Made by a program: the position numbers and the translations under genes. From Deltaproteobacteria bacterium (GTDB taxonomy: Bacteria > Myxococcota_A > UBA9160 > SMWR01): a stretch of DNA of 53,308 bases. The stretch lies in contig JAFDBP010000040.1 of assembly GCA_019313245.1 (NCBI GenBank), positions 1 to 53,308 on the forward strand, written 5' to 3'. The notes beneath the pieces are model-generated. The model did no database searches, was not told the origin of the DNA, and saw only the letters and a program-made list of their open reading frames with translations. Shown one piece after another: positions 5,543 through 36,939 of the stretch (position 1 is the stretch's first letter; each line of letters opens with the position of its first letter).

Positions 5543-5620
5543 CAATCTCCCGCCTAGATGAAGCCCGGTCAGCCACGGATCTCGAGGTGGAGACGCGGGG
5601 CACCCGGGGGGAGCGCGACC

Positions 5621-15260: not shown

Positions 15261-15273
15261 CAGGTTGGTAGAC

Positions 15274-18200: not shown

Positions 18201-19575
18201 GGCTGGCGAGGCGATCGAGGGCGCCGCATTCATCTTTCACGGCGGCATGTCGGGCATCTCGGACGGCAACCCGACCACGGCCAACGCGCAGGTCGAGGGC
18301 AACCAGGCGTCGGCGTGGCTGGGCTCGAGCGTATCCGGGGCCGGGGACGTAAACGGCGACGGCTACGCGGACGTGATCGTGGGCGCACCCGAATACGACG
18401 CGGGCCAGGTCGATGAAGGCATTGCCGCCGTATTCCTCGGCAGCGACACCGGTATCGCGAGCGGAAACCCGACCACGGCGGATGCGCTGATCGAAGGCGA
18501 TCAAGCCAACGCGCTGATGGGCGCGAGTGTGGCCGGAGCCGGCGACGTGAACGGCGATGGCTACGCGGACGTGATCGCGGGTGCGAGTGATTACGACGCA
18601 GGCGAGATCGACGAGGGCGCGGCATTCGTCATCCTCGGAAGCGCGACCGGCATCCCGAATGCCACCCCGGCGAGCGCGAACGCCCAACTCGAAGCGAACC
18701 AGCCCTATTCGTGGCTCGGCGCGAGCGTGTCGGGTGCGGGTGACGTGAACGGCGACGGCTACGCGGATGTCATCGTCGGCGCGTCCGATTACGACGCGGG
18801 TAAGACAGACGAAGGCGCGGCCTTCGTTTTCCTCGGCGGCGCGGCGGGCATCGCGAATGGCAACCCGGCCACGGCCGATGCGCAGATCGAGGCGCGACAG
18901 GTGGAAGCCTTCCTCGGCTGGAGCGTTTCGGGTGCCGGCGACGTGAATGGCGACGGCTTCGCAGACGTGATCGTCGGAGCGACCGATTACGACGCGGGCG
19001 AAATCGACGAGGGCGCCGCGTTCGTCTTCCTCGGCAACGCCGGAGCGGACGGTCGAACGGTGCTCGCGCGCCAGCTGCGGGGAGTGGCCGGTTCGATACC
19101 CGTCGAACCCTGGGGCACCTCGTACGTCCTCGACCAATTCAAGCTCGAAATGGCCGCGACGCACCCGATGGGGCGCGGGCGGGTCAAGCTCGAGGCCGAG
19201 ATCTGCCCCCCGGCCGCGCCGTTTGGAGATCTCAGCTGCAGCAGCCAGGTCTCTCCGAACTGGATCGATGCGACGGCGACACCGGGCGGCGTGATCCTCA
19301 GCGAGACGATTTCGGGCCTGACGTCCGACACCCTCTACCGCTGGCGAGCCCGCGTTCTCTACGCGCCCTTCGGCGTCACCGAGACCGGGATCACGCCGCC
19401 TCCGAACCCGGCCCACGGGCCCTGGCGGCGCGCGTCGGCGCAGGCCGTCGAGGCGGATGTCCGGACGCTGCCGGAGCCCGGAATGCTGGTAATGCTCAGC
19501 TCCGGGATCGCGCTGCTGATGCGGATCGGCGGTAAACGGTTGTGGGCCGGCTCCTATCGCAACGCTTCCAGATAG
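15274..19575 (+). CDS. Integrin-alpha-like FG-GAP repeat surface protein (14 repeats) with a PEP-CTERM-like sorting signal; start uncertain
   Basis: Hydrophobic signal segment, an N-terminal domain ending YPIEIDPLL, 14 GD(V/L/A)(N/D)xDG(Y/F)xD..VIVGAP repeats, and a C-terminal LPEPG + TM + basic residues. Confidence 0.9.
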   Translation: MRNLLGSVEFVRSICAGIASPRGFSRATNRDFSRDGRRSRPNALRGLLVALVLAIPAATVHGSAPEAKRGVSVIAPEIGNSAQVLGADAAWMGRIQHHLAEREYAVGPNLHGLQAPNRAHNLRTYFDATGIQVVDRTAVSSPDLLALRLASIGRGAQSLPVAPGEVTSAGARVEIRRPHIVEWYLNSAAGLEHGFTLERRPAGDGSLAVELAVRGARAVLDGERIVFLSATGRQLEYGKLAVLDAEGARLEARFEVPDPGRVRLIVDDRAASYPIEIDPLLAANDATASRAKSVAELVRERRLRRRGQKSSVSYAAVAAEEAAAFARLEAAMAFANGNPVTADAQLESNQASAALGTSVAGAGDVNGDGYADVIVGAPSYDAGEADEGAAFVFLGSASGVPDGNPVTADAQLESNQGSAALGTSVAGAGDVNGDGYADVIVGAPSYDAGEADEGAAFVFLGGASGVADGNPSTADAQLESDQASAALGTSVAGAGDVDADGYADVIAGAPGYDDVEAEEGAAFVFLGSASGVGDGDPLTADAQLESNQANAALGTSVAGAGDVNGDGFGDVIVGAPGYDDLEAEEGAAFVFLGSESGIADGNPGTAATQLESNQASAQLGGSVSAAGDVDGDGYGDVIVGARYYSSGASWGEGAALVFLGGVAGIADGNPATAAVVIKVDGDKVSFGASVSTAGDANGDGYADVIVGAPLYDSGDLAEGAAFLFLGSASGVTSQSVASAAARFESDQADAELGGCVASAGDVNGDGYADLIVGAALYDAGEIDEGAAFVFLGGASAIAGGDPAAADAQLESNQATAWLGTSVSGAGDLNGDGYADVIVGAPTYDAGEVDEGAAFVFLGGASGIADGNPATADTQLEGDQAGAWFGFSVSGAGDVNGDGYADVIVGASDYSAGQTYEGAAFIYLGSATGIADGDPVTADTQLESNQADAYLGWSVSAAGDVNGDGYGDVIVGSAAYSAGEAIEGAAFIFHGGMSGISDGNPTTANAQVEGNQASAWLGSSVSGAGDVNGDGYADVIVGAPEYDAGQVDEGIAAVFLGSDTGIASGNPTTADALIEGDQANALMGASVAGAGDVNGDGYADVIAGASDYDAGEIDEGAAFVILGSATGIPNATPASANAQLEANQPYSWLGASVSGAGDVNGDGYADVIVGASDYDAGKTDEGAAFVFLGGAAGIANGNPATADAQIEARQVEAFLGWSVSGAGDVNGDGFADVIVGATDYDAGEIDEGAAFVFLGNAGADGRTVLARQLRGVAGSIPVEPWGTSYVLDQFKLEMAATHPMGRGRVKLEAEICPPAAPFGDLSCSSQVSPNWIDATATPGGVILSETISGLTSDTLYRWRARVLYAPFGVTETGITPPPNPAHGPWRRASAQAVEADVRTLPEPGMLVMLSSGIALLMRIGGKRLWAGSYRNASR
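16282..19035 (+). repeat. 14 tandem ~198-bp coding repeats (FG-GAP blades)
   Basis: 66-aa period. Units 1 and 2 (aligned from 16291 and 16489) are nearly identical at the DNA level. Confidence 0.95.
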
Positions 19576-21689
19576 GGATTCGTCTGGTTCTTCAGTTGCG
19601 GAAACGATTCTCGAACGCGGTCGAACGCCCGAATCGCATTCTCCCTTTCGCCGAGGCGGAAGTAGAGAGCCGCGAGATTGAACGGGGCATTCTCGAAATT
19701 CGGGTCGATCTGTATCGCCGTCTCGAAAGCGCGGATGGCGCGATCGTATTCGCGCAGCTTCGTCAATGCGATGCCCGCGTGATTGTAGCTGGGGGCGTGG
19801 TCCGGGTTTAGCGCGATGCTCTTCTCGTAGCTCGCGACGGCCTCTTCGTGCCGCCCGAGCTTGGCGAGCGCGTTGCCCATGTTGTAGTAGAGCGACCAAT
19901 TGTCTCCGCCCTGCCGAGACAGTTCGGCGTAGTGGCGGAGCGCCTCCTCGTGAAGGCCGATCCTGTCGAGGGCGATGGCCAGGCCGGCTCTGCGATTCAG
20001 ATCCGAGGGGTTTGCTTCGACGGCTCTCCTTCGCTCGTCCAATTGGTTCGAGACATTCGCCTGGAGCCTCTCGAGCCGAGCCCTGGCGATCGTCACGATT
20101 TCTTCGGGGGAATTGCCGCCCTTGTTCAAGACGTCCGAATAGTGATCGATGGCCCGCTGGAGATCGCCGGATCGCTCGTAGGCCTCCCCGAGCAGATATG
20201 AGACCTGATGCGGCGATTCGTGCGAAAACGAATGCCCGTCCAGGAGTTCGATCGCCCGGCGCGGGTCGTTTTGCTGCAGCGCGTATCGGGCCCGGAACAG
20301 CCGGAGGGTGTCATCGGTCTGCCGGCGCTCGGCCAGTTGCTCCAGCAGCCCGAACGCTTCGACGTATTCTGCCTGTGCGAAGTAGTGTGCAGCCAGGTTG
20401 TTGTAGGCCTTCCACGCGGTTGGCGTCGTATTGATCGTCTCCCTCCAGAGGGTTTCATCGTCCCGCCAGATGCCGCTCTGCGTCCACGCCGCGAAGGCGA
20501 GGATTGCCACCGCTGCCGCAGCGGCGAACTGCTTCGCGATGTTCGGAATCTTCGCGAGCGCGAAGACGAGGGTCGCGGAGACCAGAAACGCAGCGGCATA
20601 AGAAGGGAGGTAGGCGTATCGGTCCGCGACGATTGGGTTCGTCGCGTAGAGGTTGAGCACGGGAAAGAGCGTAACGAGGTACCACCCCAGGGCGAAGGGG
20701 AGCTCCGAGCGGCGCTTTCCGAGTCGAATTGCGAGAGAGGCCGCCGCGGCGAGAGTGAGCGCGGAGAGCCACACCGCAGGATCGCCGATGCCGCTCGCGA
20801 GCTTCAGGTCGTAGATGGCCGAAAGTCCGGTTGGCAGCAGCAGCTTGCCGAGGTAGAAGAGCGGTATCTGTGCTGCGACCGCGAGCCGGGTGGCGAGGCT
20901 CTTGGATCCGAAGACGATGACGTGATCCGGATTGATCAGGCCCGACTGAGCGGCCACCCATTTGAAGAGGATCGCAGCCGTCAGCGCGATGGCGAAGAAT
21001 GGCACAAGGCGAGGAAGCTTTGCGCGCCAGCTCCTGGCGTCGAAGGTGGCCATCAGTAGCAGGACGCCCGGCAGAACCACGGCCGTCGCCTTCGAGAAAA
21101 TTGCGAGCGCGCAGCAGATCAGCGAGGCGGCGTAGGATGCCGACCGCTTTTCATTGGGATCGGCGAAATACCTCAAGAAGAAGTAGCAAGATGAGAAGAA
21201 GAACAGCCCGGACAACAAGACATTTCGGCAGGAGATGAAGTTCACCGCCTCGCTGTGAATCGGGTGGAGCGCGTATAGCAGCGCTGTTAGCAGGGCAGCA
21301 TTTTCCGCTCGCTGCTGGGTCAGCGCGCGCTCCTCGCCGAACAAGAGCGTCGCCAGTCGCCCCGTCATCGCGTAGACGCAGACGGCGTTCAGGTAATAGA
21401 GCAGCAGATTGGTGAGGTGGAATCCGAGGGGATTCTCTCCCCAGAGCGCGTAATCGAGCGCATAGGAGAGATCGCGCAGGGGCAGGTATTCGAGTCGATT
21501 CGCGAGAGAGAAGAAAATTCGCTTCAGATCGAACGCTGCGTAGGCGTCCTGACCCAGCAGCAGCACGCGATCGTCCCAGACGAAGTCGAAGTGCAGCGCG
21601 CGCCCGAAGGTCGCAGCGACGCAGATCAGGATGACCAGCAGATGAGCGGTCCGGCTGCTGCGAGCGTTACCGAAAACGTCTCTGGTCAT
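19554..21689 (-). CDS. TMTC-like GT-C membrane glycosyltransferase with C-terminal TPR repeats
   Basis: FVWDD, YLPLRDLSYALDY, FHLTNLLL, LHPIHSEAV and ADRYAYLP motifs, then many TPRs. GGGGGA RBS before ATG 21689. Confidence 0.85.
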   Translation of the reverse strand: MTRDVFGNARSSRTAHLLVILICVAATFGRALHFDFVWDDRVLLLGQDAYAAFDLKRIFFSLANRLEYLPLRDLSYALDYALWGENPLGFHLTNLLLYYLNAVCVYAMTGRLATLLFGEERALTQQRAENAALLTALLYALHPIHSEAVNFISCRNVLLSGLFFFSSCYFFLRYFADPNEKRSASYAASLICCALAIFSKATAVVLPGVLLLMATFDARSWRAKLPRLVPFFAIALTAAILFKWVAAQSGLINPDHVIVFGSKSLATRLAVAAQIPLFYLGKLLLPTGLSAIYDLKLASGIGDPAVWLSALTLAAAASLAIRLGKRRSELPFALGWYLVTLFPVLNLYATNPIVADRYAYLPSYAAAFLVSATLVFALAKIPNIAKQFAAAAAVAILAFAAWTQSGIWRDDETLWRETINTTPTAWKAYNNLAAHYFAQAEYVEAFGLLEQLAERRQTDDTLRLFRARYALQQNDPRRAIELLDGHSFSHESPHQVSYLLGEAYERSGDLQRAIDHYSDVLNKGGNSPEEIVTIARARLERLQANVSNQLDERRRAVEANPSDLNRRAGLAIALDRIGLHEEALRHYAELSRQGGDNWSLYYNMGNALAKLGRHEEAVASYEKSIALNPDHAPSYNHAGIALTKLREYDRAIRAFETAIQIDPNFENAPFNLAALYFRLGERENAIRAFDRVRESFPQLKNQTNPYLEALR

Positions 21690-21973
21690 CGATTCCCCCA
21701 GCCTCTGCAAGCTATCTAATTTGCCTGGATTTGCCGCTGGGCATACCTTCGGCTCGTTAGGTGTTCCGCAAGAATTGGCAGCAACCTGAATTCGTACCCG
21801 CCGCGTGCAATCCCAGCACGAGTTCCGCGCCAACTTGCACGCTAGTTGCACATCGGATCCGAGTCGAAAGGGTCTTCTTCGCGCAGCGGATGCGGAAAAT
21901 TCCGCAGGTGTGCGCCAGATCACGCCGCAAGTCATTTGCATTCACCGGGGGTCCGCCCTCAGCGAGGCGTAAA

Positions 21974-21999: not shown

Positions 22000-22019
22000 G
22001 TTTCGACCGAAGAGTTGGT

Positions 22020-22035
22020 TGGCCCTGTTCTTGCA
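22020..22035 (+). promoter_or_regulatory. Putative sigma-54 (-24/-12) promoter for the omcE-like gene
   Basis: TGGCCCTGTTCTTGCA with GG at 22021-22022 and GC at 22033-22034, canonical spacing, about 85 nt upstream of the ATG. Confidence 0.72.
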
Positions 22036-22120
22036 GATCAGTTCAGAGGCCCGAGGAGTACATCGCGAACAGATCTCCTCGACGGTCGCGAATTCGCAGA
22101 AAACAACAAAGGAGCAGTAA

Positions 22121-22744
22121 ATGAGGCGCCAACAACTCACGCAACTCATCGGAGCACTCGTGGTGGCCGCTGCGTTGGTCGGTCTCCCGGCAACCGCTTT
22201 TGCCGTCATCACGGGTTCAGCGCACGACCTCAGCGCGCAGTCGTACACGACCGAGATCTGCAACGTTTGCCACACCCCGCACAATGCTTCGACCGTGACC
22301 GCGGCACCGCTGTGGGACCACACGGAAACCTCGGCGACCTACACGGTCTATTCGAGCACCACCCTGAACGCGAGCCCGGGTCAACCGAGCGGCGTTTCGA
22401 AGCTCTGCCTGTCCTGCCACGATGGTACGGTGGCGATCGACGCTTTCGCAGGCGCCACCGGAACTACCAGCGTGACGGGCGCGGCTCTGGTCGGCACCGC
22501 GCTGGCGAACGATCACCCGATCTCCTTCACCTACAACACGGCGTTGGCGACTGCGGACGGCGAACTCTTCGATCCCTCGACAGACACGACGTCTCTCGGC
22601 GGCACGATCGCGGAAGACCTGCTGTTCTCGGACAGCCTCGAGTGTGCTTCGTGCCACGATGTGCACAACGCGCTAGGCAATGCCAACCTGCTTCAGATCG
22701 CCAACACGGACAGCGATCTCTGCCTGACCTGCCACGACAAGTAG
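22121..22744 (+). CDS. Tetraheme c-type cytochrome, OmcE-like (putative nanowire subunit)
   Basis: Strong AAGGAG RBS and a 28-aa signal peptide (AFA). Four CxxCH motifs in the layout AHDLS..ICNVCHTPHNA..PLW..YSS..SKLCLSCHDG..GTxLxNDHP..LECASCHDVH..SDLCLTCHDK-stop, as recalled for Geobacter OmcE. Confidence 0.88.
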   Translation: MRRQQLTQLIGALVVAAALVGLPATAFAVITGSAHDLSAQSYTTEICNVCHTPHNASTVTAAPLWDHTETSATYTVYSSTTLNASPGQPSGVSKLCLSCHDGTVAIDAFAGATGTTSVTGAALVGTALANDHPISFTYNTALATADGELFDPSTDTTSLGGTIAEDLLFSDSLECASCHDVHNALGNANLLQIANTDSDLCLTCHDK

Positions 22745-22786
22745 GCAGTTGCAGTAGCCGCCTCGCTTCGAGGTGGAGCATCATTT

Positions 22787-22825
22787 GGGCGCATCCCTTT
22801 GCGGGGATGCGCCCTTTGCTTTATT
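22787..22825 (+). terminator. Rho-independent terminator after the omcE-like gene
   Basis: Perfect 11-bp stem GGGCGCATCCC/GGGATGCGCCC, 6-nt loop, followed by TTTGCTTTATT. Confidence 0.85.
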
Positions 22826-22903
22826 GGGCGCGGCACACCCCCAGGGGTGTTGCAGGGAATTTGAGGTATCTTGCGCGCCGTAAACGGGAATCGGGAGTAC
22901 GGG

Positions 22904-24046
22904 GTGAGGAAGATTCGAGGTCAACGGAGTCGGTCACTATCGGCAAACAGGAGATCGCGCGCCGTTGCGCGTTCTGGCACGGCGCTCGCCGTGCTGATCG
23001 GCTTCGGAGTCTGCATTCTGCTTTCTTCCTGCGCGGGCACCGGTGAGCCGGTCGAGCGCGATTACGTTCTCTTCCCACCTCCGCCGCAGCAGTCCCGCAT
23101 TCAGTTCCTGGCAGCCTACAACGGCGACGAGGACATTCTCCCGCCGTTGAGCGGCTTTCGCCGCCTCGTCATGGGCGAACGCGAGGGCCGCTTGCTGATC
23201 AAACCCTACGGCGTGGCGATCCACGACGGTCAGATCCTGATCTGCGACACGAAGCCCAACATCGTCGCGGTATTCGACCTCAGGAACCAGACAGTCGAGA
23301 TCCTCGGTGAGGGGCCGAGCGGCCAACTCGCCAAGCCGGTCAACATCGCGGTGGATGAGGATGGCACCCGCTACGTGGCGGACGCGAAACTCAACCGGGT
23401 GATGGTCTACGACGCGGATAACCGTTACGTCCGAGCGATCGGCAATCCCGAGGCCTGGTCGCCCACCGACGTCGCCATCATCGGCAAGCGACTCTACGTC
23501 ACCGACAGGAAGAATGGAGAGGTCGTTCTCGTCGAGAAAGCGACCGGCGAGGAGCTGAGGCGATTCAGTCCGGCTGGCGCCGGAGAAAATGCGCTCTTCT
23601 TCCCGACCAACCTCGCCGTGGGCGTCGACGGAAGCGTGTACGTCACCGAGACGGGGCATGCCCGGGTCCGCAAGTTCGACGATCGGGGGAAGCTGCTCAA
23701 GACCTTCGGTTCTCTGGGCGAGAGGCTGGGCCAGTTCGTGCGCCCAAAAGGCGTCGCGGTCGATCGTGATGGCAACGTCTATGTGGCGGACGCCGCTTCC
23801 GAGGTCGTCCAGATCTTCAATCCCGATGGCGATCTGCTGCTCTTCTTTGGCGGACCGGGAAATCGCCCGGGTGGGATCAACATGCCCGCGAAGGTGGTGA
23901 TCGATTACGACAACGTCGATCTCTTCGCGGATCGCGTGGCCCCCGGTTACAAGCTCGAATACCTGGTCGTCGTCACCAGTCAATTCGGGTCGAACAAGGT
24001 GAGCGTGTTTGGTTATATCGAGCCGAACGGGCAGGGCGGTGGTTGA
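22904..24046 (+). CDS. NHL-repeat beta-propeller lipoprotein (start could also be TTG 22871)
   Basis: Lipobox LSSC. The FPPPPQQSRIQF motif resembles WPEAPEPARIEY in the 1902 paralog. NHL repeats include FVRPKGVAVD. Confidence 0.87.
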   Translation: MRKIRGQRSRSLSANRRSRAVARSGTALAVLIGFGVCILLSSCAGTGEPVERDYVLFPPPPQQSRIQFLAAYNGDEDILPPLSGFRRLVMGEREGRLLIKPYGVAIHDGQILICDTKPNIVAVFDLRNQTVEILGEGPSGQLAKPVNIAVDEDGTRYVADAKLNRVMVYDADNRYVRAIGNPEAWSPTDVAIIGKRLYVTDRKNGEVVLVEKATGEELRRFSPAGAGENALFFPTNLAVGVDGSVYVTETGHARVRKFDDRGKLLKTFGSLGERLGQFVRPKGVAVDRDGNVYVADAASEVVQIFNPDGDLLLFFGGPGNRPGGINMPAKVVIDYDNVDLFADRVAPGYKLEYLVVVTSQFGSNKVSVFGYIEPNGQGGG

Positions 24047-24104
24047 GGCTGGCCTCCCGCGGCGATCGCGGGCCCGATGGCGAAACTCGAAAGGGAGAAT
24101 GCGC

Positions 24105-24734
24105 ATGGGCGATGAGAACACGTCGGGCAGCCCCGACTTCCGCTTGGCGCTCTGGATCGGCGCGGCGGTGCTGGTGGGCGTGGCGATCATGATTGGCGTC
24201 GACTGGCCGGAGGAAACCAGCGCTCCCGCTCGAGATGCGACTGCGGGCATGGGATCGGAATTCGCGCCGCCACCCGCGGCCCCGCCGCAGACCCAGAGCC
24301 CACGAGCGGTTGCGGACCAGCTTTTCAACCGCGCGATGATGGCGCACGAAACCGGGCAGGCGCAGCAGGCCGCCATCTTCCTGCCCGAGGCCATCGCGGC
24401 GTACCAGAAGCTCGAACCCCTCGACGACGATGGCCTCTTCCACCTCTCCGTGCTCCAACTCGCGGATGGAGATGCGGTGGCGGCGCGAGCTACCTCGGAT
24501 CGCATTCTCGCCAAGGCGCCCGACCACCTGCTCGGGTTGGCGGCGGCCGCGAGGGCGTCGGAAGAGACTGCGCCGAGCGAAGCGAGGGCGTTCTGGCAAC
24601 GCTATCTCGACGTCTTCGCCGAGCAGCAGGGCAAGGAAGTCGAGTACGGGCACCACCAGCAGATGTTTCCAATGCTGAGCGCTCGCGCGAGCGAGTTCAT
24701 CGCCCGGACACCCGCGAACGCGGCGACTCCTTAG
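24105..24734 (+). CDS. Membrane-anchored alpha-helical/TPR-like hypothetical protein
   Basis: AGGGAG RBS, one N-terminal TM, a Pro/Ala linker, then TPR-like helices. Confidence 0.65.
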   Translation: MGDENTSGSPDFRLALWIGAAVLVGVAIMIGVDWPEETSAPARDATAGMGSEFAPPPAAPPQTQSPRAVADQLFNRAMMAHETGQAQQAAIFLPEAIAAYQKLEPLDDDGLFHLSVLQLADGDAVAARATSDRILAKAPDHLLGLAAAARASEETAPSEARAFWQRYLDVFAEQQGKEVEYGHHQQMFPMLSARASEFIARTPANAATP

Positions 24735-24801: not shown

Positions 24802-26274
24802 ATGAAGCGTCACGGCACTCGAAACGCGGTTGCGGAGAGTGGCGCCGGAATCGCCGACTGGGCGCGTCACCCACTCTCGCTGTTCCTGCTCTTCCTCGGC
24901 AGTCTGCTCCTCTACGCGAAGACGACGACGTTTGGATTCCTGCCGATGTGGGACGACGGTTTCTACGTCGTCCACAACCCGCAGATCCAGCAGTTCAGCC
25001 CGGCGAATCTGGCCGAGATTCTCGGCAGCACATTCAAGGGTTCGTATCACCCGCTGCCGTTGCTGAGTTACGCGCTCGAGCACGCACTCTGGGGACTCGC
25101 GCCGGGCGGCTACCACGCGACCAACGCATTGCTCCACGCTTTCAATAGCTGCCTGGTCTCGTTACTGCTCGTTCGGCTCACCGGCCGGCCCGGCCTGTCT
25201 CTGTTCGCGGCGATCTTATTCGCCGTTCATCCGGTCAACGTCGAGAACGTCGCCTGGGTGTCCGAGCGCAAGACCTTGCTCGCCGGGGCCTTCGGGCTGG
25301 CTTCGCTGCTGGTGTACCTGCGCCACCTCGAAACGGGTCGACGCCGAGACTACGCCGGTGCATTGGCGCTCTACCTGCTTGCGTTGTCTTCCAAGGCGAC
25401 CTTCGTCGTGCTTCCGCTGGTGCTGCTGCTCCACGCGCTGCTGCTCGACGGGGTCCGGCGTCGCTGGCGACGCTCTCTCCCGTTCTTTGCGGCGACGGCT
25501 GTGGTGCTCGCGGTAACCATCCGGGCCTTCGCGGCCGAGAGTTTGTTCGAGGCGGGTTCGCTGCGGCCTTCCACGCTCCTTGGAAGCGTGTATCCCACGA
25601 TGTTGCCGGTCTTCTGGAAATACCTCGGGCTGCTGGCGTTTCCAGCGGAGTTGAGCGGATTCTACGAAACATCACTCCACCACTCGTTCGCGAGCCTTCC
25701 CGTTCTGGCCTCGCTCCTGGGTTGGATCGCGGTATTCGCGCTCGTGCTGTTGCGCGGCAGCTCGCAGGTACGCTTCTGGTTTCTCTGGTACTGGGTCTGG
25801 TTGCTTCCGGCGTCTAATTTGATTCCCGGACTTGTCTATTACGCTGACCGCTACCTGTATTTCCCCGGTATTGGCGCCTACGTGCTGCTGGGTATGGCGG
25901 GGCGCTGGTTGGCGGGATCGGACTTCGCTGCCCGTTGGAGCCTCGCTCGGCGCCGGCGCGTTCTCGTCGCTGTGGGCGCAGCACTGGCAGCGGCCTACGC
26001 GGGCGTGGCCTTCCTGCGCATGGAGGTATGGCGCGACGAATTGGCCTTCTGGGAAGATGCAGCCCGCAAGTCACCCGGCATGTACAAGCCGCGTCTGAAT
26101 TTGGGTGTGGTTTACGAAAGCGAGGGGCGCCTGGCCGAGGCGGAGCGCGAATACCTGGCCGCGGAGCAAATCTTCCCGAATCCGAATGTCCGCGAGAATC
26201 TGCAGATCCTGCGGGCGCGGATGGCAGTGCGCGAATCGAGACCGCAAGTTCCGAAGCGTGAGGCGCAAGACTGA
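24802..26274 (+). CDS. TMTC-like GT-C membrane glycosyltransferase with a short TPR tail
   Basis: MWDDGFYV, YHPL, YHATNALLH, FAVHPVNVENVAWVSERK and ADRYLYFP motifs. GAGGA RBS. Confidence 0.85.
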   Translation: MKRHGTRNAVAESGAGIADWARHPLSLFLLFLGSLLLYAKTTTFGFLPMWDDGFYVVHNPQIQQFSPANLAEILGSTFKGSYHPLPLLSYALEHALWGLAPGGYHATNALLHAFNSCLVSLLLVRLTGRPGLSLFAAILFAVHPVNVENVAWVSERKTLLAGAFGLASLLVYLRHLETGRRRDYAGALALYLLALSSKATFVVLPLVLLLHALLLDGVRRRWRRSLPFFAATAVVLAVTIRAFAAESLFEAGSLRPSTLLGSVYPTMLPVFWKYLGLLAFPAELSGFYETSLHHSFASLPVLASLLGWIAVFALVLLRGSSQVRFWFLWYWVWLLPASNLIPGLVYYADRYLYFPGIGAYVLLGMAGRWLAGSDFAARWSLARRRRVLVAVGAALAAAYAGVAFLRMEVWRDELAFWEDAARKSPGMYKPRLNLGVVYESEGRLAEAEREYLAAEQIFPNPNVRENLQILRARMAVRESRPQVPKREAQD

Positions 26275-26322: not shown

Positions 26323-28629
26323 CTATTGGGCTTCGCGATTCAGCAGTGCGGCGAGGTGGCGGTTTGCCATCTCGAAGGTGGGGTCGAGTGCGAGTGCGCT
26401 GCGAAGGGCTTCGACGGCCTGCGGAAATTGCCCTAGCCGCTCCAACGACAATCCCAGGTTGAAATGAATTCGCGCGTCATCGGAGACGAGGCTCGCGGCG
26501 ATGCGATAACAGCGCGCCGCGAGATCGTATCGCTGCTCCTGCCAACAGAGTGCGGCGACTTCGCCCGCCAGTTGAGCGTTTCGGAGCCGAAAGCCGGTGT
26601 CCGAGGCCACCTGTGAACGCACTCGATCGAATTCGGGAGAGCCGCCATCCAATTGCGCCTCGGCTGAGGCGAGCGCCGCCCCGGTCTCCTCCAGTTTGCC
26701 GATCCGAGCTAGTGCTTTCGCGCGCAGCAGGAGCAGTTCCAGCCCCAGGTGTCCTTTCTGCTGCGCGGCATCGAGAGCGGTGAGGCTTTCGACGGGTTGG
26801 TCGGTCTCGATGAGGAGCGCCGCATATCGAAGCCATGCGTTGGAATGCCACGGGTCGAGTTGGACGGCGGCGGCAAACGCCTCCAGCGCATCCTTCGGCC
26901 GAGCCTCTCTCTCCAACGCGAGGCCGTAGCGCATCCACACCTGAACATCCCACGGCGTCAGGCGAACCAGCTTCTCACAGAGCGCGGCCACTTCGGCATA
27001 GCGATGTTGGCGCGCGAGCACCGCGCCGAGGTAATCCAGCAGCCTCGGGTTGGCAGGGTCCTCGCGAAGCAGCTGACGGAGTTCACCCTCGGCTTCGACC
27101 GTCCGGTCTGCAGCGAGCAATCCGTCGACGCGCGTCATGGTCGCTTCGAGCGCGGCGAGCACGGCGCGGGGATCCGCGGCTTCGCTCGAGCCGCTGGATT
27201 GCGCCCTCGCATCGTTCCAGATGTAACCGAGCGCAGCCATGCGATCCCTGGTTTCCGCGTCGAGTTCGAGTCTCTGAGGTGTGCGCGACTCGTCGCCTGC
27301 CGGATACAGCGAGTTCATCTGATCGAGCATCGCGCGCACTCTGGCGGGCTCGCTGGAGGCGAGATCGCGCTGCTCATCGGGGTCAGCGCGCAGGTCGTAG
27401 AGTTCCGCGGAGGCGCCCAGAACGAGTTTCCAATCAGCGTCGCGCAAGCCGCGGAGTTCCGACCAGCCGTAGCTCTCTCGGGGATACAGGCTCTCGACGT
27501 ACGCGGGAGCGGTGCTCGGGCTTCGACTCTCCCCGCGAAGTAGCGGGGAGAGGTTCGCTCCCTCGACGCCTGCCGGAATGTCGACACCCGCAGCCGCCAG
27601 GATCGTCGGCAGCAGATCGATCAGTTCAACCTGTTGGGTGAGCTGTTGGCCGCGTGCGCCGCCCGGTGCTGCGATGACCAGGGGGACGCGAATCGTCGCG
27701 TCGTAGATGAATACGCCGTGGGTGGCTTCGCTGTGCTGACCGAGGCTCTCGCCGTGATCCGATGTGAGCACGATCATCGCTCCCTCGAGGCGACCGAGTT
27801 CCCGGTATCCGTCGAGAAGTGCGCCGATCTGGCGGTCGGTGTAAGCGATTTCGCCATCGTAGGGCGTGTCCGCGAATTGGCTTCTCTCGGGCTCGGGTGG
27901 CTCGTACGGAGCGTGGGGGTCGAAAAGGTGAACCCAGACGAAACAGGGGCCCGTCTCCTGTCTGGCGAGCCAGCGCAGCGCGAGTGGAACCACCTCTTCG
28001 GCTCGCCGATGCCGATACACCCTCAGGCCCGGGTGTTCGCTCGCATCGAAGCGATCGTCGTAATGTTGGAAGCCCTGCCGAAGTCCGTAGCGTGAGCTCA
28101 AGACCTCCGCGCCGATGAAGGCTCCGGTGCAATAACTCGCTTCCCCGAGCAACTCGGCGAGCGTTCGCGCCTCTTCGGTGAGCCGGTACGTGCCGTTGTT
28201 GCGGACGCCGTGAGTCGGCGTTCTCTGACCGGTCATGATCGATGCATGGGATGGGAGGGTCAGGGGAGTCGGTGCGATCGCCTGCAGAAATGCAGTGCCC
28301 CGCTCGGCGAGGCGGTCGACATTCGGCGTGAGGCCGGTCCCGATGAATCGATCCGCGCGCGCCGTGTCGATCGTCACGAGAAGCACATCGGGCGGGCGCA
28401 GCAGCGACGCGTCGGTGGTTCCCGACTCGGATTCGCGATCGCATGCCAGTTGTAACACCGCGACGGCTGCAAAAAAGAGGAGGAGCGTTGGGAGCACGCT
28501 TTCGAATCTGCGCTTCGTCCGAAATCGTCCGCGAGCAGCCGCTCCGCCGGTCGTCGAGGCTCGCCACATATCAGTCTCCAAGCAATTCGCGCGCAGCTCG
28601 GCTCGATGCGTCGGTCGGCATGGGATCAC
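26323..28629 (-). CDS. Sulfatase-like (alkaline phosphatase superfamily) hydrolase/transferase with a C-terminal TPR domain; start may be 28569
   Basis: LLVTIDTARAD, PLTLPSHASIMTG, HLFDPH and SDHGE motifs. Lipobox-like QLAC. TPRs follow the MAALGYI motif. Confidence 0.85.
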   Translation of the reverse strand: MIPCRPTHRAELRANCLETDMWRASTTGGAAARGRFRTKRRFESVLPTLLLFFAAVAVLQLACDRESESGTTDASLLRPPDVLLVTIDTARADRFIGTGLTPNVDRLAERGTAFLQAIAPTPLTLPSHASIMTGQRTPTHGVRNNGTYRLTEEARTLAELLGEASYCTGAFIGAEVLSSRYGLRQGFQHYDDRFDASEHPGLRVYRHRRAEEVVPLALRWLARQETGPCFVWVHLFDPHAPYEPPEPERSQFADTPYDGEIAYTDRQIGALLDGYRELGRLEGAMIVLTSDHGESLGQHSEATHGVFIYDATIRVPLVIAAPGGARGQQLTQQVELIDLLPTILAAAGVDIPAGVEGANLSPLLRGESRSPSTAPAYVESLYPRESYGWSELRGLRDADWKLVLGASAELYDLRADPDEQRDLASSEPARVRAMLDQMNSLYPAGDESRTPQRLELDAETRDRMAALGYIWNDARAQSSGSSEAADPRAVLAALEATMTRVDGLLAADRTVEAEGELRQLLREDPANPRLLDYLGAVLARQHRYAEVAALCEKLVRLTPWDVQVWMRYGLALEREARPKDALEAFAAAVQLDPWHSNAWLRYAALLIETDQPVESLTALDAAQQKGHLGLELLLLRAKALARIGKLEETGAALASAEAQLDGGSPEFDRVRSQVASDTGFRLRNAQLAGEVAALCWQEQRYDLAARCYRIAASLVSDDARIHFNLGLSLERLGQFPQAVEALRSALALDPTFEMANRHLAALLNREAQ

Positions 28630-30372
28630 TCAGCGCTCCGTGGTGTCGATTCGCCGGTAGATCTTGAGCGGCGGCTTTTCCGCTGGAATCCGGAACTTGT
28701 GGAACAACGGATCGGGATTGTTGCTCCAGATGAGATCGCTGGCAGCCGTTTCTTCTTCGCGATACGGGACGCCGGCGAGCGAGCGCAGGAACGCCTCATC
28801 CTGGTTGAGAGGATAGGGGGGGCGCGGAATCACGAAATCGGGCACCCCCCCTCCGTAATTCCAGCGAGAGATGATGTGGAGTTCGGGGTGGTAGAACATG
28901 AGCGACAGATCCTCGTAGGAGGTCTTGACCACCTGCCCGGGCGCCGACCAGCGTTCGAGGTACGCAGAAATTCCCTCCTCGGGGTCGGCGATGTGGTGGC
29001 TGATTTCGTAGAGAAAGAGCGCCTGCTCGGATCGGATGGGCGTCCAACGCCAGAGTTCGGACGGGAAGACCGTGTACTCCTCGCGCGAACTTTCATCGCT
29101 CGGGACGAGCATTTCCACGAGTCTGAGCGGCAAAGCGGAGAGGGCATTCGAACCCAGCAGCAGGAAGACGAGGATCCACGTCGCTCTGCCCATTTCCTCG
29201 AAAAGGAGTTTGAGCAGAGTCGCTCCCCAAAGCATCAGCAGCGGTGACACCGGCAGCAGGTAGCGAAGGAAGGGGTAGGGGGAAGCTACGGACATTCCTA
29301 CGAGATAGAGCGGCACCAGGATCGCGAGGATCTGGAAGAGTGCCCGTGCCGGTTCGCTCGCCTCGGCGTTGTCACTGGATTCACGCGAATGAGCCGAGCG
29401 CAACGACACGGCTGCGAGAATTGCCAGCAGCCCGATCAGGGCGAGCATCGGCATTCGCATCGTCTCGACTGCCGACCCGAGCAGGAAGGCGGCATACGCC
29501 GCGAGTGCGTACGGGCGTACCGCCTTGCGGAAGAATCCGGCGACGACCGGAATCGCAAATGGCAGAACAGCTGCATTGATCCACAGCAGATCGATCCAGA
29601 TGGACCCGCCGACGTCGAGCAGCGACGAGGGCCCTTCCGTTGGGCGGTTCAGAAGATCTGAGTAGGCGGTGAATGGCAGCGCGCCGCCGAGAAGCAGCGC
29701 GGTTGCAAGTGCGATCGGACGCAGGAAGCAGCTACGTCGGTGTTTCCACAGCGCGTGGATCCAGATCGCGGCGAGGTTCAGCGCTGCGACCGCGAAGAAC
29801 GAGTGGAAAGTGAGAAGCAACGCGGCCGATAGGTGGGCCCATCCCGATTTTTGATGGCGGAGAATTGCCAGATAGCCCCAGATGCTCCAGAGCGTGCCCA
29901 GGCTGACGAGGCTGTAGTAGCGACATTGGCGCAGGTGAAGCAGCAGGGGCACCGAAGTGATCAAGATCGCGAGCGCCAGGATCTCGAATTTCGGGTCGCC
30001 CGGCGCGATTCGTCTGGAAAGGCGCCAATAGATCGAGAAACAGGCGAAGCCGACCAGCGCGAACGGGATTCGAGCGGCCCACTCGCTTTCTCCGAAGAGC
30101 GCGAAGGAGCCCGCTGTGAGGTAGAACGGCAACCAGGTGTTCCAGACGAAGACCCGATCGCGGTTGAAGTCGGAGGCGTCGGCGCGATCCGTCGGCAGAT
30201 TTTCGTTCGCCGCAACCTTGGGAAGCCCGGATTCGAGCACGCCCCTTCCGAGCAGGGCCGTTTGCGCCTCGTCGTACCAGAGCGTGCGGTCACCGAGATT
30301 GGCGAGCAGAAGCGCCGCTCCGAGGAGAAGCAGGGCATGGGCGGCGCTTGCGCGTTGCGGGAATCGCTTCAT
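28630..30372 (-). CDS. ArnT/PMT-family (GT-C) membrane glycosyltransferase
   Basis: LWYDEA motif after TM1, FGESEWAARIP and QCRYYSL motifs, many TM helices. Confidence 0.8.
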   Translation of the reverse strand: MKRFPQRASAAHALLLLGAALLLANLGDRTLWYDEAQTALLGRGVLESGLPKVAANENLPTDRADASDFNRDRVFVWNTWLPFYLTAGSFALFGESEWAARIPFALVGFACFSIYWRLSRRIAPGDPKFEILALAILITSVPLLLHLRQCRYYSLVSLGTLWSIWGYLAILRHQKSGWAHLSAALLLTFHSFFAVAALNLAAIWIHALWKHRRSCFLRPIALATALLLGGALPFTAYSDLLNRPTEGPSSLLDVGGSIWIDLLWINAAVLPFAIPVVAGFFRKAVRPYALAAYAAFLLGSAVETMRMPMLALIGLLAILAAVSLRSAHSRESSDNAEASEPARALFQILAILVPLYLVGMSVASPYPFLRYLLPVSPLLMLWGATLLKLLFEEMGRATWILVFLLLGSNALSALPLRLVEMLVPSDESSREEYTVFPSELWRWTPIRSEQALFLYEISHHIADPEEGISAYLERWSAPGQVVKTSYEDLSLMFYHPELHIISRWNYGGGVPDFVIPRPPYPLNQDEAFLRSLAGVPYREEETAASDLIWSNNPDPLFHKFRIPAEKPPLKIYRRIDTTER

Positions 30373-30400
30373 CGGCAACCGTGGTTACGCGGTGTGCGCA

Positions 30401-32332: not shown

Positions 32333-32486
32333 CCGGCCTCCAGGGTCGATACGTGCCCGCCATGGGGGGTCTCGGCGCGCGTTCGCGTGTAGTGCGGGGG
32401 AATTCTATCCGATCTGCTCTGCGATTCGAGTGCGATGCGCGCGCGATCGAAGCCGCGCTGCAATTTCGCGTTACACTCGCGAGCCG

Positions 32487-34208: not shown

Positions 34209-34262
34209 AGCGAGAGTTTTCGCCCCAACACCGAACATCGAGCGGTGAGCGTGATCGCGCGG

Positions 34263-35765: not shown

Positions 35766-35926
35766 TGCGGAATTCTCCAGCTCGTCCGCGCAATGTCGCG
35801 GCGCGGATCGCGGAATACCGAGGTTACGAGTGGAGCGAGTAATTTGAATTGAATCCCTCGCAACCATCCATCGCGAATAGACTCTACTGGTGTCCGCTGT
35901 GTGAAGCACATGCGGGAGAAGCCGTA

Positions 35927-36850: not shown

Positions 36851-36939
36851 ATCCCTCTTTTCGAAATCCCGCCTCCCGAAGTGAAGGCCGGCTCGGCGCG
36901 CGTGATACCTTTGGCGGCCAGGGGGTGTTGTCCGTCGCG

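What the first reader, a model, noticed from the sequence alone, without database searches (positions are those of the whole stretch)
22020..22825. OmcE-like tetraheme with the expression signature of an abundant structural subunit
The 179-aa mature protein is a bare four-heme unit ending right after the last CxxCH (HDK-stop). It has candidate distal His residues in AHDLS, TPH, NDH and DVH, about 26% Ser+Thr (27 Thr and 19 Ser by manual count), no Arg and only two Lys. It has its own sigma-54 promoter, a strong AAGGAG RBS and an immediate strong terminator ahead of the co-oriented NHL gene. That arrangement would give much more subunit than accessory protein, as in pilin or flagellin loci.
Basis: partly seen in the sequence, partly recalled or inferred. 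Interest (0 to 1): 0.87.

Follow-up and report, generated by a model that had tools for sequence, protein, structure and literature searches.

The report
OmcE-family nanowire cytochrome gene
This gene encodes a four-heme protein clearly related to the subunits of two known bacterial "nanowire" filaments and sits among the usual helper genes, so it is a new member of a published family, not a new kind of system.

Summary
ORF 22121-22744 (+) encodes a 207-aa precursor and a 179-aa mature protein with four CxxCH motifs, 27 Thr, 19 Ser, no Arg and 2 Lys, ending CHDK.

It is a true OmcE homologue. It aligns full-length to the two solved OmcE-type filament subunits: 9YUQ at E 5.5e-28 and 7TFS at E 1.2e-23. 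All four distal His, the N-terminal HD arm and the C-terminal CHxK end are conserved.

A sigma-54-type -24/-12 element, an AAGGAG RBS and a strong terminator are present. All are conserved in a same-genus relative. Such promoters and terminators are enriched family-wide.

Polymerisation and relative expression could not be tested. No RNA runs were listed, and the fold and complex models were uninformative.

Verdict: a real, well-supported new member of a known kind. Extras are a ninth invariant His, a 12-heme cytochrome with an OmcE-like N-module, and the same cassette in many more phyla than the paper reports.

The parts
21891..21906 (.). Imperfect palindrome TGCGGAAAATTCCGCA, about 115 nt upstream of the -24 element. 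It is a candidate binding site (UAS) for a sigma-54 activator.
   Evidence: Read. A near-identical palindrome sits at the aligned place in the same-genus relative L001. The function is inferred.
22020..22035 (+). Sigma-54-type -24/-12 promoter element TGGCCC-N5-TTGCA.
   Evidence: one mismatch to the consensus. It is conserved in 15 of 16 bases at the same distance from the ATG in L001. rpoN is present in the genome. No sigma-70-like site was found in 21500-24200. Activity was not tested.
22044..22120 (+). Predicted 5' UTR with a conserved block and a 5' stem-loop. The RBS AAGGAG is at 22109-22114.
   Evidence: One search shows a block conserved with L001. folds it at -19.9 kcal/mol, z -1.97, which is modest. 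The RBS was read.
22121..22744 (+). OmcE-family tetraheme c-type cytochrome precursor. The signal peptide is 22121-22204 and the mature protein is 179 aa.
22758..22776 (+). First 3' hairpin, directly after the stop codon.
   Evidence: A compensatory C-G to T-A change keeps the stem in L001.
22787..22824 (+). Intrinsic-terminator-like hairpin (12 bp, 9 GC) plus a T-rich tail.
   Evidence: The stem is conserved in L001.
22871..24046 (+). NHL-repeat beta-propeller lipoprotein with lipobox LSSC. The real start may be the GTG at 22904.
   Evidence: NHL, E 3.6e-19. A homologue lies within 1200 nt downstream of the OmcE-like gene in 65 of 73 genome loci and 46 of 54 metagenome loci that have room for it.
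24009..24734 (+). 241-aa membrane-anchored protein of unknown family.
   Evidence: No Pfam family at E<=0.1; only three far-sub-threshold NCBIfam matches (best E 0.012, 16 bits against a cut-off of 70). It is conserved at 71% identity at the same position in L001.
19554..21941 (-). Divergent multi-pass membrane protein with C-terminal TPR repeats, GT39/PMT_2-like. The real start is probably near 21689.
   Evidence: One search finds the TPR repeats; 27% identity, E 2e-29, to the PMT_2+TPR protein at 32253-34208.
24802..26274 (+). Second GT39/PMT_2-like membrane protein with TPR repeats.
   Evidence: 30% identity, E 2e-33, to the PMT_2+TPR protein at 32253-34208.
26323..38412 (.). Further putative glycan-modification genes. 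These are sulfatase-domain+TPR (26323-28629, -), PMT_2 (28630-30378, -), PMT_2+TPR (32253-34208, +), PMT_2 (34263-36044, -) and sulfatase-domain (36673-38412, +).
2..1894 (+). Large outer-membrane beta-barrel, cut at its N-terminus by the contig end.
   Evidence: No Pfam hit. The AF2 model has pLDDT 91.2 and about 33 strands. Foldseek finds FimD usher, TonB-dependent receptors and LptD, with the best TM-score for MtrB (6r2q_B, 0.48). Homologues occur in 44 of 79 genome loci.
2975..4657 (+). 560-aa cytochrome with 11 CxxCH plus one CxxxCH. Residues 8-203 form an OmcE-like module, followed by an extension carrying 8 more heme motifs (7 CxxCH plus the CxxxCH).
   Evidence: 44% identity to P0001; 9YUQ E 6.1e-28 and 7TFS E 2.4e-21, aligned to the very end of the solved subunit.
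5558..6733 (+). Second NHL beta-propeller protein.
6751..10422 (+). 1223-aa cytochrome with 11 CxxCH and an fn3 domain.
10497..12784 (+). ResB and CcsB, the System II cytochrome c maturation proteins.

Best explanation
The gene encodes the main subunit of an OmcE-type extracellular tetraheme cytochrome filament (a 'cytochrome nanowire').

Shown here:
- It is a full-length homologue of the two solved OmcE-type filament subunits, with all eight heme-ligating His, the N-terminal HD arm and the CHxK C-terminus.
- The contig carries the published accessory set.

Inferred:
- The precursor is exported by Sec and cut after A28.
- It receives four hemes from the ResB/CcsB system encoded on the same contig.
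- It is probably O-glycosylated on its many Ser/Thr by the flanking GT39-like/TPR enzymes.
- It crosses or is mounted on the outer membrane through the large beta-barrel, helped by the NHL lipoproteins.
- It polymerises head to tail. My recollection is that the N-terminal arm His (H35) completes the coordination of a heme in the adjacent subunit, giving one continuous heme chain.

Transcription most likely starts at a sigma-54 promoter driven by an activator bound at the upstream palindrome. Most transcripts would stop at the terminator before the NHL gene, so that more subunit than accessory protein is made.
For: Homology
- phmmer against the PDB gives 9YUQ (D. soudanensis OmcE bundle, PMC13712944) at E 5.5e-28 and 7TFS (G. 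sulfurreducens OmcE filament) at E 1.2e-23. Both alignments run from the signal peptide to the last residue.
- These are the only two convincing matches among the 12 sequences listed at E<=10.
- 7tfs is also the only Foldseek match, at 32% identity.

Ligands and termini
- H35, H54, H132, H182 and the four CxxCH are invariant in 44 of 44 homologues. They align to His in both solved subunits.
- 149 of 150 four-heme family members end exactly two residues after the last CxxCH, mostly as CHxK.

Natural fusions
- Database proteins carry 2-4 OmcE-like modules in tandem (P0122, P0123, P0124, P0140).
- The last CxxCH of one module is followed by the next module's HD after 8-9 residues at 6 of 7 junctions read.
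- That equals the C-terminal tail (2) plus the mature N-arm (6) of this protein. Free subunits would therefore meet end to end without a linker.

Context
- An NHL lipoprotein lies directly downstream. The contig also carries a large beta-barrel (pLDDT 91, best TM to MtrB), a second NHL protein, two large multiheme cytochromes and ResB/CcsB.
- Petersen et al. describe the minimal OmcE cluster as two multiheme cytochromes, two beta-propeller lipoproteins, OmcE and a large beta-barrel. They say it is often followed by GT2/4/39, TPR and sugar genes (section read).
- The order OmcE-like, NHL, barrel, NHL, ~560-aa cytochrome recurs across phyla.

Glycosylation
- Both flanking membrane-TPR proteins are paralogues of a PMT_2+TPR protein.
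- OmcE is described as extensively glycosylated (PMC9473688, passages read).

Expression signals
- See for the window and its relative.
- A sigma-54-like motif with at least 10 of 11 matches lies upstream of 16 of 135 nine-His family genes, against 10 of 2085 random windows.
- A hairpin plus T-tail lies downstream of 54 of 167 family genes, against 18 of 377 control ORFs.
Against: - No direct evidence of polymerisation, extracellular location, glycosylation or transcript levels exists for this protein.
- The heme-free AF2 monomer is poor (pLDDT 59.3). Its Foldseek match to 7tfs is weak (E 7e-3, TM 0.28), so the fold and heme geometry are not shown.
- The barrel and the other cytochromes lie 17-20 kb away rather than adjacent. 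In most other loci they follow directly.
- The protein has nine conserved His for four hemes. Petersen et al. (discussion read) suggest that count for a terminating 'anchor' subunit rather than the polymerising one.
- The sigma-54 motif is not significant within the window alone. The relative that conserves it is of the same genus.
- The gene is patchy among relatives: 6 of 31 genomes including this one.
- Whether cytochrome filaments serve as electron conduits in vivo is itself disputed (PMC11077965, abstract seen in the listing).
Confidence: 0.62

Rival explanations
1. It is a non-polymerising tetraheme electron carrier. It would work as the periplasmic or cell-surface partner of a porin-cytochrome conduit formed by the large beta-barrel and the 12-heme and 11-heme cytochromes, in the manner of MtrCAB. 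No long filament would be built.
For: - The barrel model's best TM-score is to MtrB of the Mtr complex.
- The contig encodes two large multiheme cytochromes.
- The family is very large: 4862 clusters at 50% identity with E<=1e-3. It occurs in many phyla not known for nanowires.
- Petersen et al. themselves restricted 'nanowire-capable' homologues to a subset.
- Nine His could allow all four hemes to be ligated within one chain.
Against: - Both experimentally characterised members of the family are filaments.
- The N-terminal arm His and the exact CHxK end, which are termini and usually variable in monomers, are invariant or nearly so.
- Tandem fusions show modules joined end to end.
- Position 67 is R or K in the solved subunits and in 63 of 68 long-cytochrome N-modules. 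This points to a basic side chain rather than an axial ligand.
Confidence: 0.25
2. It is a minor terminating or 'anchor' subunit of a filament whose main subunit is encoded elsewhere in the incompletely assembled genome. The ninth His (H67) would satisfy the interface heme internally.
For: - Petersen et al. propose that an ideal anchor has nine His and four hemes with an OmcE-like structure.
- This protein has exactly that.
- The genome is only 84% complete.
Against: - It is the only stand-alone OmcE-like gene found in the genome.
- The nine-His form is the commonest stand-alone form: 173 of the 198 stand-alone (small) proteins among the 266 modules aligned, and 115 of 143 representatives.
- It usually sits first in the cassette and is followed by a terminator-like hairpin, as expected of a major subunit.
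- Tandem-fused modules also keep this His.
Confidence: 0.08
3. The promoter is not sigma-54-dependent. The motif would be a chance match, and the gene would be transcribed from an unrecognised promoter or by read-through, with the hairpin acting mainly as an mRNA stabiliser.
For: - There are 3 matches in the window against 1.16 expected, and 8 of 100 shuffles reach 3.
- No activator gene was found in the window.
- The conservation comes from a same-genus genome in which the whole last 100 nt upstream is conserved.
Against: - The GG-N10-GC spacing is exact, on the right strand and in an intergenic region 86 nt from the ATG.
- 15 of 16 bases are conserved, against 71% for the region.
- rpoN is present.
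- No sigma-70-like site was found.
- Such motifs are about 25-fold enriched upstream of family genes.
Confidence: 0.35

Closest known systems
OmcE of Geobacter sulfurreducens (PDB 7TFS), a tetraheme filament subunit
   Same: - Full-length sequence homology: E 1.2e-23, and 32% identity in the Foldseek alignment.
- Four CxxCH, four distal His, an N-terminal K/A-HD-LS arm, and an end two residues after the last CxxCH.
- S/T-rich, with glycosylation genes nearby. OmcE is described as extensively glycosylated (PMC9473688).
   Different: - This protein is shorter (207 against 232 aa precursor).
- It has His where OmcE has Arg in PLWN-R.
- It comes from an uncultured lineage whose FtsH is closest (72-73%) to Myxococcota and 'delta proteobacterium' MAGs.
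- Its accessory genes are split over the contig.
DSOUD_2954 of Desulfuromonas soudanensis WTL (PDB 9YUQ), an OmcE homologue forming anti-parallel bundles (PMC13712944)
   Same: - It is the best PDB match: E 5.5e-28, aligned end to end.
- It shares the same cluster logic of beta-propeller lipoproteins, a large beta-barrel and two multiheme cytochromes.
   Different: - The D. soudanensis protein shows no glycan density and its cluster lacks glycosylation genes. This locus is embedded in GT39-like/TPR genes.
- The bundling loops are reported as not conserved among homologues, so bundling cannot be inferred here.
OmcS (6EF8) and the archaeal tetraheme filaments PcECN and AvECN
   Same: They are 'insulated' filaments in which a heme is ligated by a His of the adjacent subunit. 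The heme stacking is the same as in OmcE (PMC9473688 and PMC12954529, passages read).
   Different: None of them matched this protein by sequence at E<=10 in the PDB search. The likeness is one of working principle, not of family membership.
Desulfovibrio ferrophilus IS5 outer-membrane cytochrome clusters (DFE_448-451, DFE_461-465)
   Same: [quoted passage not shown]
   Different: Homology to the genes here was not tested, because I held no sequences from that organism. The paper proposes a surface complex, not a filament.
Major pilin and flagellin loci (expression architecture)
   Same: The subunit gene has its own promoter and is followed by a terminator ahead of the accessory genes. Sigma-54 dependence of Geobacter pilA through PilR is recalled from memory and was not checked here.
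   Different: The proteins are unrelated, and no transcript data exist for this locus.

Membership tests
OmcE-type tetraheme filament cytochromes | Significant full-length sequence similarity to solved OmcE subunits | tested here: met
   9YUQ E 5.5e-28 (query residues 12-207 against 4-218 of 218). 7TFS E 1.2e-23 (13-207 against 9-232 of 232).
OmcE-type tetraheme filament cytochromes | Four CxxCH motifs in a mature protein of about 180-200 aa | tested here: met
   motifs at 47, 96, 175 and 201; the mature protein is 179 aa.
OmcE-type tetraheme filament cytochromes | Four further conserved His for bis-His ligation. [quoted passage not shown] | tested here: met
   H35, H54, H132 and H182 are invariant in 44 of 44 sequences and align to His in 7TFS and 9YUQ. 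The actual ligation was not observed.
OmcE-type tetraheme filament cytochromes | One heme ligated by a His of the adjacent subunit; head-to-tail polymer | not testable with these tools
   No usable multimer model was obtained. Indirect support only: invariant termini and tandem-module fusions with 8-9-residue junctions.
OmcE-type tetraheme filament cytochromes | Alternating parallel and T-shaped heme chain | not testable with these tools
   The AF2 model has no hemes and a pLDDT of 59.3.
OmcE gene cluster (Petersen et al. 2026) | Beta-propeller lipoprotein encoded next to the subunit gene | tested here: met
   The NHL protein at 22871-24046 has lipobox LSSC. The adjacency is conserved in 65 of 73 and 46 of 54 loci.
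OmcE gene cluster (Petersen et al. 2026) | Large outer-membrane beta-barrel nearby | tested here: met
   Window 2-1894: pLDDT 91.2, about 33 strands. Foldseek matches large outer-membrane barrels. It lies 20 kb from the subunit gene, not adjacent.
OmcE gene cluster (Petersen et al. 2026) | Two further multiheme cytochromes and a second beta-propeller | tested here: met
   2975-4657 (12 heme motifs), 6751-10422 (11 CxxCH) and NHL at 5558-6733.
OmcE gene cluster (Petersen et al. 2026) | Optional glycosylation block (GT39 and others, TPR proteins) | tested here: met
   Three PMT_2 hits plus two flanking PMT_2-like paralogues. Glycosylation of the protein itself was not tested.
Sigma-54-dependent promoter | GG at -24 and GC at -12 with TGGCAC-N5-TTGCW spacing, upstream of the gene on its strand | tested here: met
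   22020-22035, one mismatch. It is not significant by count within the window alone.
Sigma-54-dependent promoter | RpoN encoded in the genome | tested here: met
   TIGR02395, 459 bits, above the cut-off.
Sigma-54-dependent promoter | Cognate activator (EBP) and its upstream binding site; activity dependent on RpoN | tested here: inconclusive
   A conserved palindrome at 21891-21906 is a candidate site. No Pfam match to a sigma-54 activator family was listed for any of the window's proteins scanned. Activity is not testable here.
Intrinsic (Rho-independent) terminator | GC-rich hairpin followed by a U-tract directly after the stop codon | tested here: met
   The stem is conserved in L001. Termination efficiency was not tested.

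The most novel reading that the evidence does not exclude
The 'nine-His' OmcE-like subunit and its five-gene cassette (subunit, NHL lipoprotein, large barrel, second NHL, ~560-aa cytochrome) form one nanowire system spread across far more phyla than the five reported. By record titles these include Bacteroidota, Chlorobiota/Ignavibacteria, Calditrichota, Gemmatimonadota, Verrucomicrobiota, Planctomycetota, Omnitrophota and Myxococcota.

In this reading the cassette's ~560-aa cytochrome is the operon-encoded base or tip adaptor. Its first 200 residues are a complete OmcE-like module, and an 8-heme extension continues exactly where a free subunit would end. Petersen et al. say no such adaptor has been found in OmcE operons.

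The ninth His (H67) could act as a stand-in ligand before assembly.
Probability: 0.3. Interest if true: 0.75.

Novelty: new member of a known kind. Interest (0 to 1): 0.45.

Why it matters
Only two bacterial OmcE-type filaments have been solved, both from Desulfuromonadia. The published survey reported likely homologues in five phyla.

This locus shows the same subunit and helper set in an uncultured lineage related to Myxococcota or 'delta proteobacterium' MAGs, judged by FtsH similarity. The comparison loci show it in many more phyla. Cytochrome-filament electron transfer may therefore be much more widespread in sediments than is now assumed.

The conserved promoter and terminator layout gives a testable rule for telling the major subunit gene from its helpers. 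The 12-heme cytochrome with an OmcE-like N-module is a concrete candidate for the open question of how such filaments are anchored or capped.

Tried and rejected
- **Homo-oligomer model.** Complex prediction with two copies of residues 29-207 (alignment A1) plus four hemes scored 0.02 against a mark of 0.42. The tool's verdict was 'no answer', so it gives no support and no evidence against. Only 4 of the 8 hemes needed could be supplied.
- **Monomer AF2 model.** pLDDT 59.3. This is too poor for fold comparison, and Foldseek returned only 7tfs at E 7e-3.
- **RNA evidence.** The look-up of sequencing runs listed no RNA holder, and the best DNA holder had a 0.20 share of words. I therefore did not use read laying, and the coverage step at 22825 remains untested.
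- **Closer relatives for footprinting.** The metagenome scan returned nothing closer than 63% identity.
- **First promoter scan.** The script dropped 23 of 80 loci through a start-finding fault. I redid it.
- **Rfam.** No match at E<=1 in 21600-23000.
- **OmcE structure paper.** Wang et al. 2022 Nat Microbiol could not be read. Which His is donated between subunits is therefore recalled or inferred, not cited. Supplements of all papers were closed. The homologue list and alignment figure of PMC13712944 might already include relatives of this protein.
- **Literature on OmcE beyond the five phyla.** (OmcE with six phylum names) returned no relevant paper. One search ('OmcE-like') found only PMC13712944 and one peat preprint, which has a single mention.
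Full report
**1. What is in the sequence**

The window is a whole 53,308-bp contig (C40) of a 3.88-Mb, 308-contig genome bin that is 84% complete. ORF 22121-22744 (+) encodes 207 aa.

Cleavage after AFA (A28) is my reading of the sequence. It leaves 179 aa with 27 Thr, 19 Ser, no Arg, 2 Lys and 9 His. There are four CxxCH motifs, and the protein ends CHDK-stop.

The expression signals are as follows.
- **RBS:** AAGGAG at 22109-22114 sits 6 nt before the ATG.
- **Promoter-like element:** TGGCCCTGTTCTTGCA at 22020-22035 differs from TGGCAC-N5-TTGCW at one base. Three such sites occur in the window against 1.16 expected, and 8 of 100 shuffles reach three. The motif alone is therefore not significant.
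- **Sigma-70:** no sigma-70-like site was found in 21500-24200.
- **Terminator:** a 12-bp stem with 9 GC pairs at 22787-22814 is followed by TTTGCTTTAT. The 3' region folds at -47.6 kcal/mol, z -4.25, and 0 of 200 shuffles fold as well.
- **Rfam:** nothing was found.

**2. What the protein is**

Pfam sees only the generic Paired_CXXCH_1 domain. A phmmer search of all PDB sequences gives two convincing matches among the 12 listed at E<=10.
- 9YUQ, 'putative multiheme cytochrome c', has 16 chains in the entry and scores E 5.5e-28.
- 7TFS, the G. sulfurreducens OmcE filament, scores E 1.2e-23.

Both alignments run from the signal peptide to the last residue.

9YUQ is the D. soudanensis OmcE homologue DSOUD_2954, which forms anti-parallel nanowire bundles (Petersen et al., mBio 2026, PMC13712944). 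I read that paper's outline, its sections 8, 9 and 12, and passages.

They align to His in both solved subunits. [quoted passage not shown]

The heme-free AF2 model is poor (pLDDT 59.3). This is expected for a protein described as about 80% coil. Its only Foldseek match is 7tfs (E 7e-3, TM 0.28, 32% identity). Family membership therefore rests on sequence, not on fold.

**3. Family size and family-wide traits**

The word-indexed search found 5963 proteins at E<=1e-3 among the 8000 candidates scored. The exhaustive search of 50%-identity representatives found 4862 clusters at E<=1e-3, 3223 at E<=1e-10 and 413 at E<=1e-30.

I examined 150 four-heme, nine-His members from the fetched loci.
- Median S+T is 21.6%. 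The window protein, at 25.7%, is higher than 96% of them.
- Median K+R is 3.2%.
- 149 of 150 end exactly two residues after the last CxxCH, mostly as CHxK.

The 'bare unit', S/T-rich and K/R-poor character is thus a family trait, not something special to this gene.

**4. A ninth invariant His**

H67 (PLWDH) is invariant in 44 of 44 sequences. Both solved subunits have Arg at this position.

I aligned 266 OmcE-like modules from the loci. Of these, 198 are stand-alone (small) proteins and 68 are N-modules of ~560-aa cytochromes.
- 173 of the 198 stand-alone proteins have all nine His.
- The N-terminal modules of the ~560-aa cytochromes have R (51), K (12), Q (2), E (2) or H (1) at this position.
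- 8 stand-alone proteins have the Arg pattern.

Among 143 single-module representatives, 115 have nine His and 14 have the Arg pattern.

The position is therefore nearly always basic. I infer a propionate-pairing or similar role rather than axial ligation, but this is not shown.

Petersen et al. write that an ideal 'anchor' subunit would have nine His and four hemes. I keep that reading as a minor rival.

**5. Context in the window**

| Coordinates | Strand | Product |
|---|---|---|
| 2-1894 | + | protein with no Pfam match (beta-barrel, see below) |
| 2975-4657 | + | cytochrome with 11 CxxCH plus one CxxxCH |
| 5558-6733 | + | NHL propeller |
| 6751-10422 | + | cytochrome with 11 CxxCH and fn3 |
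| 10497-12784 | + | ResB and CcsB |
| 13393-14949 | - | B12-binding radical SAM enzyme |
| 15256-19575 | + | FG-GAP repeat protein |
| 19554-21941 | - | membrane protein with TPR |
| 22121-22744 | + | the OmcE-like gene |
| 22871-24046 | + | NHL propeller with lipobox LSSC |
| 24009-24734 | + | 241-aa protein |
| 24802-26274 | + | membrane protein with TPR |
| 26323-38412 | mixed | sulfatase-domain and PMT_2 (GT39) genes |

The 2-1894 product, modelled with 38 homologues, is a confident all-beta protein (pLDDT 91.2, about 33 strands). It matches large outer-membrane barrels: FimD usher, TonB-dependent receptors and LptD. Its best TM-score is for MtrB, 6r2q_B, at 0.48.

The two membrane-TPR proteins flanking the cytochrome gene are paralogues of the PMT_2+TPR protein at 32253-34208 (E 2e-33 and 2e-29).

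This layout matches Petersen et al.. [quoted passage not shown] These are commonly followed by GT2/4/39, TPR, sugar-modification and regulator genes, which they link to OmcE glycosylation.

The difference here is that the barrel and large cytochromes lie 17-20 kb upstream of the subunit gene.

**6. Context elsewhere**

By their titles they come from MAGs of Bacteroidota, Chlorobiota/Ignavibacteria, Calditrichota, Gemmatimonadota, Verrucomicrobiota, Planctomycetota, Omnitrophota, Kiritimatiellota, Sumerlaeota, Spirochaetota, Deferribacteres, Myxococcota, and Beta-, Gamma- and 'Delta'-proteobacteria, including Geobacter.

The metagenome scan gave 80 more loci. Counts:
- **NHL downstream, genome loci:** 65 of the 73 loci with at least 1300 nt downstream have an NHL gene within 1200 nt.
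- **NHL downstream, metagenome loci:** 46 of 54.
- **Barrel homologue:** 44 of 79 genome loci.
- **~560-aa cytochrome:** 51 of 79 genome loci.
- **Barrel, large cytochrome and at least two NHL genes together:** 32 of 79 genome loci.

Contig ends and the divergence of the barrel make these lower bounds. The recurrent order is subunit, NHL, barrel, (cytochrome), NHL, ~560-aa cytochrome.

Petersen et al. reported likely homologues in five phyla. I could not see their supplements.

Within the window's own lineage the gene is patchy. It occurs in 6 of 31 genomes at E<=1e-10, counting this one, and in 2 of 6 other genomes of the same genus.

FtsH of the window is closest (72-73%) to MAGs titled Myxococcota and 'delta proteobacterium'.

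**7. Evidence bearing on polymerisation**

Direct tests failed and are listed under Tried and rejected. Three indirect lines remain.
- **Known members:** both characterised members of the family are filaments.
- **Conserved termini:** I30, G32, S33, H35 and D36 at the N-terminus and K207 at the C-terminus are invariant or nearly so. This is unusual for a monomer.
- **Tandem fusions:** natural proteins carry OmcE-like modules in tandem (P0122, P0123, P0124, P0140). At 6 of the 7 junctions I read, 8-9 residues separate the last CxxCH of one module from the next module's HD; the seventh has 17. In this protein the C-terminal tail (DK) plus the mature N-arm (VITGSA) is 8 residues.

The fusions thus look like subunits joined end to end without a linker. 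That is a Rosetta-stone argument for head-to-tail contact between the last heme and the next subunit's N-terminal His.

A heme in OmcE is ligated by a His of the adjacent subunit; this is stated in PMC9473688 and PMC12954529 (passages read). That the donated His is the N-terminal one is my recollection and inference. The primary paper could not be read.

**8. Expression signals**

The relative L001 has the same match coordinates as G003:C44, a same-genus genome. Its protein is 72-74% identical. In the upstream region, which is 71% identical overall, L001 conserves several features:
- 15 of 16 bases of the -24/-12 element, at the same distance from the ATG;
- an imperfect palindrome (window 21891-21906) about 115 nt further upstream;
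- a 5'-UTR block;
- the RBS.

Both 3' hairpins are kept, the first through a compensatory C-G to T-A change. rpoN is present in the genome.

Across the family, two counts support the pattern.
- **Promoter:** a sigma-54-like motif with at least 10 of 11 matches lies in the 360 nt upstream of 16 of 135 nine-His genes, against 10 of 2085 random windows of the same loci.
- **Terminator:** a hairpin of -12 kcal/mol or better with a T-rich tail lies within 130 nt downstream of 54 of 167 genes, against 18 of 377 control ORFs of at least 250 aa.

The terminator control is rough because it includes spurious ORFs. My crude tail test also missed the window's own terminator, which one search detects.

These counts make a subunit gene with its own strong signals and a terminator before the helpers a credible general pattern. 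The transcript ratio itself is untested, because no RNA run was listed.

**9. Mechanism, rivals and verdict**

The most likely reading (about 0.6) is that this is the major subunit of an OmcE-type filament. The proposed path is as follows:
1. Export by Sec.
2. Maturation by ResB/CcsB.
3. Probable O-glycosylation by the GT39-like/TPR enzymes.
4. Passage or mounting through the barrel with the NHL lipoproteins.
5. Head-to-tail polymerisation.

Transcription would come from a sigma-54 promoter and be largely terminated before the NHL gene.

The rivals are a non-polymerising member of a porin-cytochrome conduit (about 0.25) and a minor anchor subunit (about 0.08). A chance sigma-54 motif (about 0.35) bears on the promoter claim only.

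The protein is a member of the OmcE family by every feature that could be tested. The filament-defining features (inter-subunit His ligation and heme geometry) could not be tested.

Because the family, its filaments and its accessory cluster are published, this is a new member of a known kind. What goes beyond the literature I could read is:
- the nine-His signature;
- the breadth of the cassette across phyla;
- the tandem-fusion argument;
- the 12-heme cytochrome with an OmcE-like N-module, a candidate filament adaptor.

Noticed in passing
window 2975-4657 (+): This 560-aa cytochrome has 11 CxxCH plus one CxxxCH. Its residues 8-203 align end to end with the solved OmcE-type subunits (9YUQ E 6.1e-28, 7TFS E 2.4e-21). 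It is 44% identical to the stand-alone subunit. An extension with 8 more heme motifs starts exactly where a free subunit ends. The protein is conserved in the cassette across phyla (51 of 79 genome loci). It is a candidate base or tip adaptor of the filament. Petersen et al. say no such candidate is known in OmcE operons.
   Followed up: partly
proteins P0122, P0123, P0124, P0127, P0140: Database proteins of 459-1400 aa carry two to four OmcE-like modules in tandem with 8-9-residue junctions. P0124 adds a long C-terminal non-heme region. They look like covalent stretches of nanowire.
   Followed up: partly
window 22319-22321 (codon of H67); family-wide: There is a ninth invariant His (PLWxH) where the solved OmcE subunits have Arg. 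It is the dominant form among stand-alone relatives (173 of the 198 stand-alone proteins among 266 modules; 115 of 143 representatives). Its role is unknown.
   Followed up: partly
loci L011, L012, L019, L025, L040, L042, L056, L062 and others: 33 of 157 loci carry two or more small OmcE-like genes. These include five-heme variants and paralogues that lack one distal His or, in L012 at 16645, the N-terminal His. They could be minor or terminal subunits. None was found in the window's genome.
   Followed up: no
window 15256-19575 (+): This 1439-aa FG-GAP repeat protein has 12 repeats. Its C-terminus reads like a PEP-CTERM sorting signal (PEP, a hydrophobic stretch, then basic residues). A weak sigma-54-like site (CGGCACGTCCTTTGCA, 15245-15260) overlaps its listed start. 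A homologue also precedes the OmcE-like gene in L001.
   Followed up: no
window 19554-21941 (-): This GT39-like/TPR gene sits between the FG-GAP gene and the OmcE-like gene. The same-genus relative L001 has no gene there: its FG-GAP gene ends 350 nt before the cytochrome gene. This suggests a local insertion or deletion.
   Followed up: no
window 26323-28629 (-) and 36673-38412 (+): Two sulfatase-domain proteins, one fused to TPR repeats, lie among the PMT_2 genes. A homologue of the second follows the 241-aa gene in L001. They may modify the glycan or the envelope.
   Followed up: no
genome G026 (same order): One relative holds 10 separate matches to the subunit, while most relatives (25 of 31) hold none at E<=1e-10. 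The distribution is strongly patchy and points to gain and loss or transfer.
   Followed up: no
window 13393-14949 (-): A B12-binding radical SAM enzyme lies between the cytochrome maturation genes and the FG-GAP gene. Any link to the cluster is unknown.
   Followed up: no
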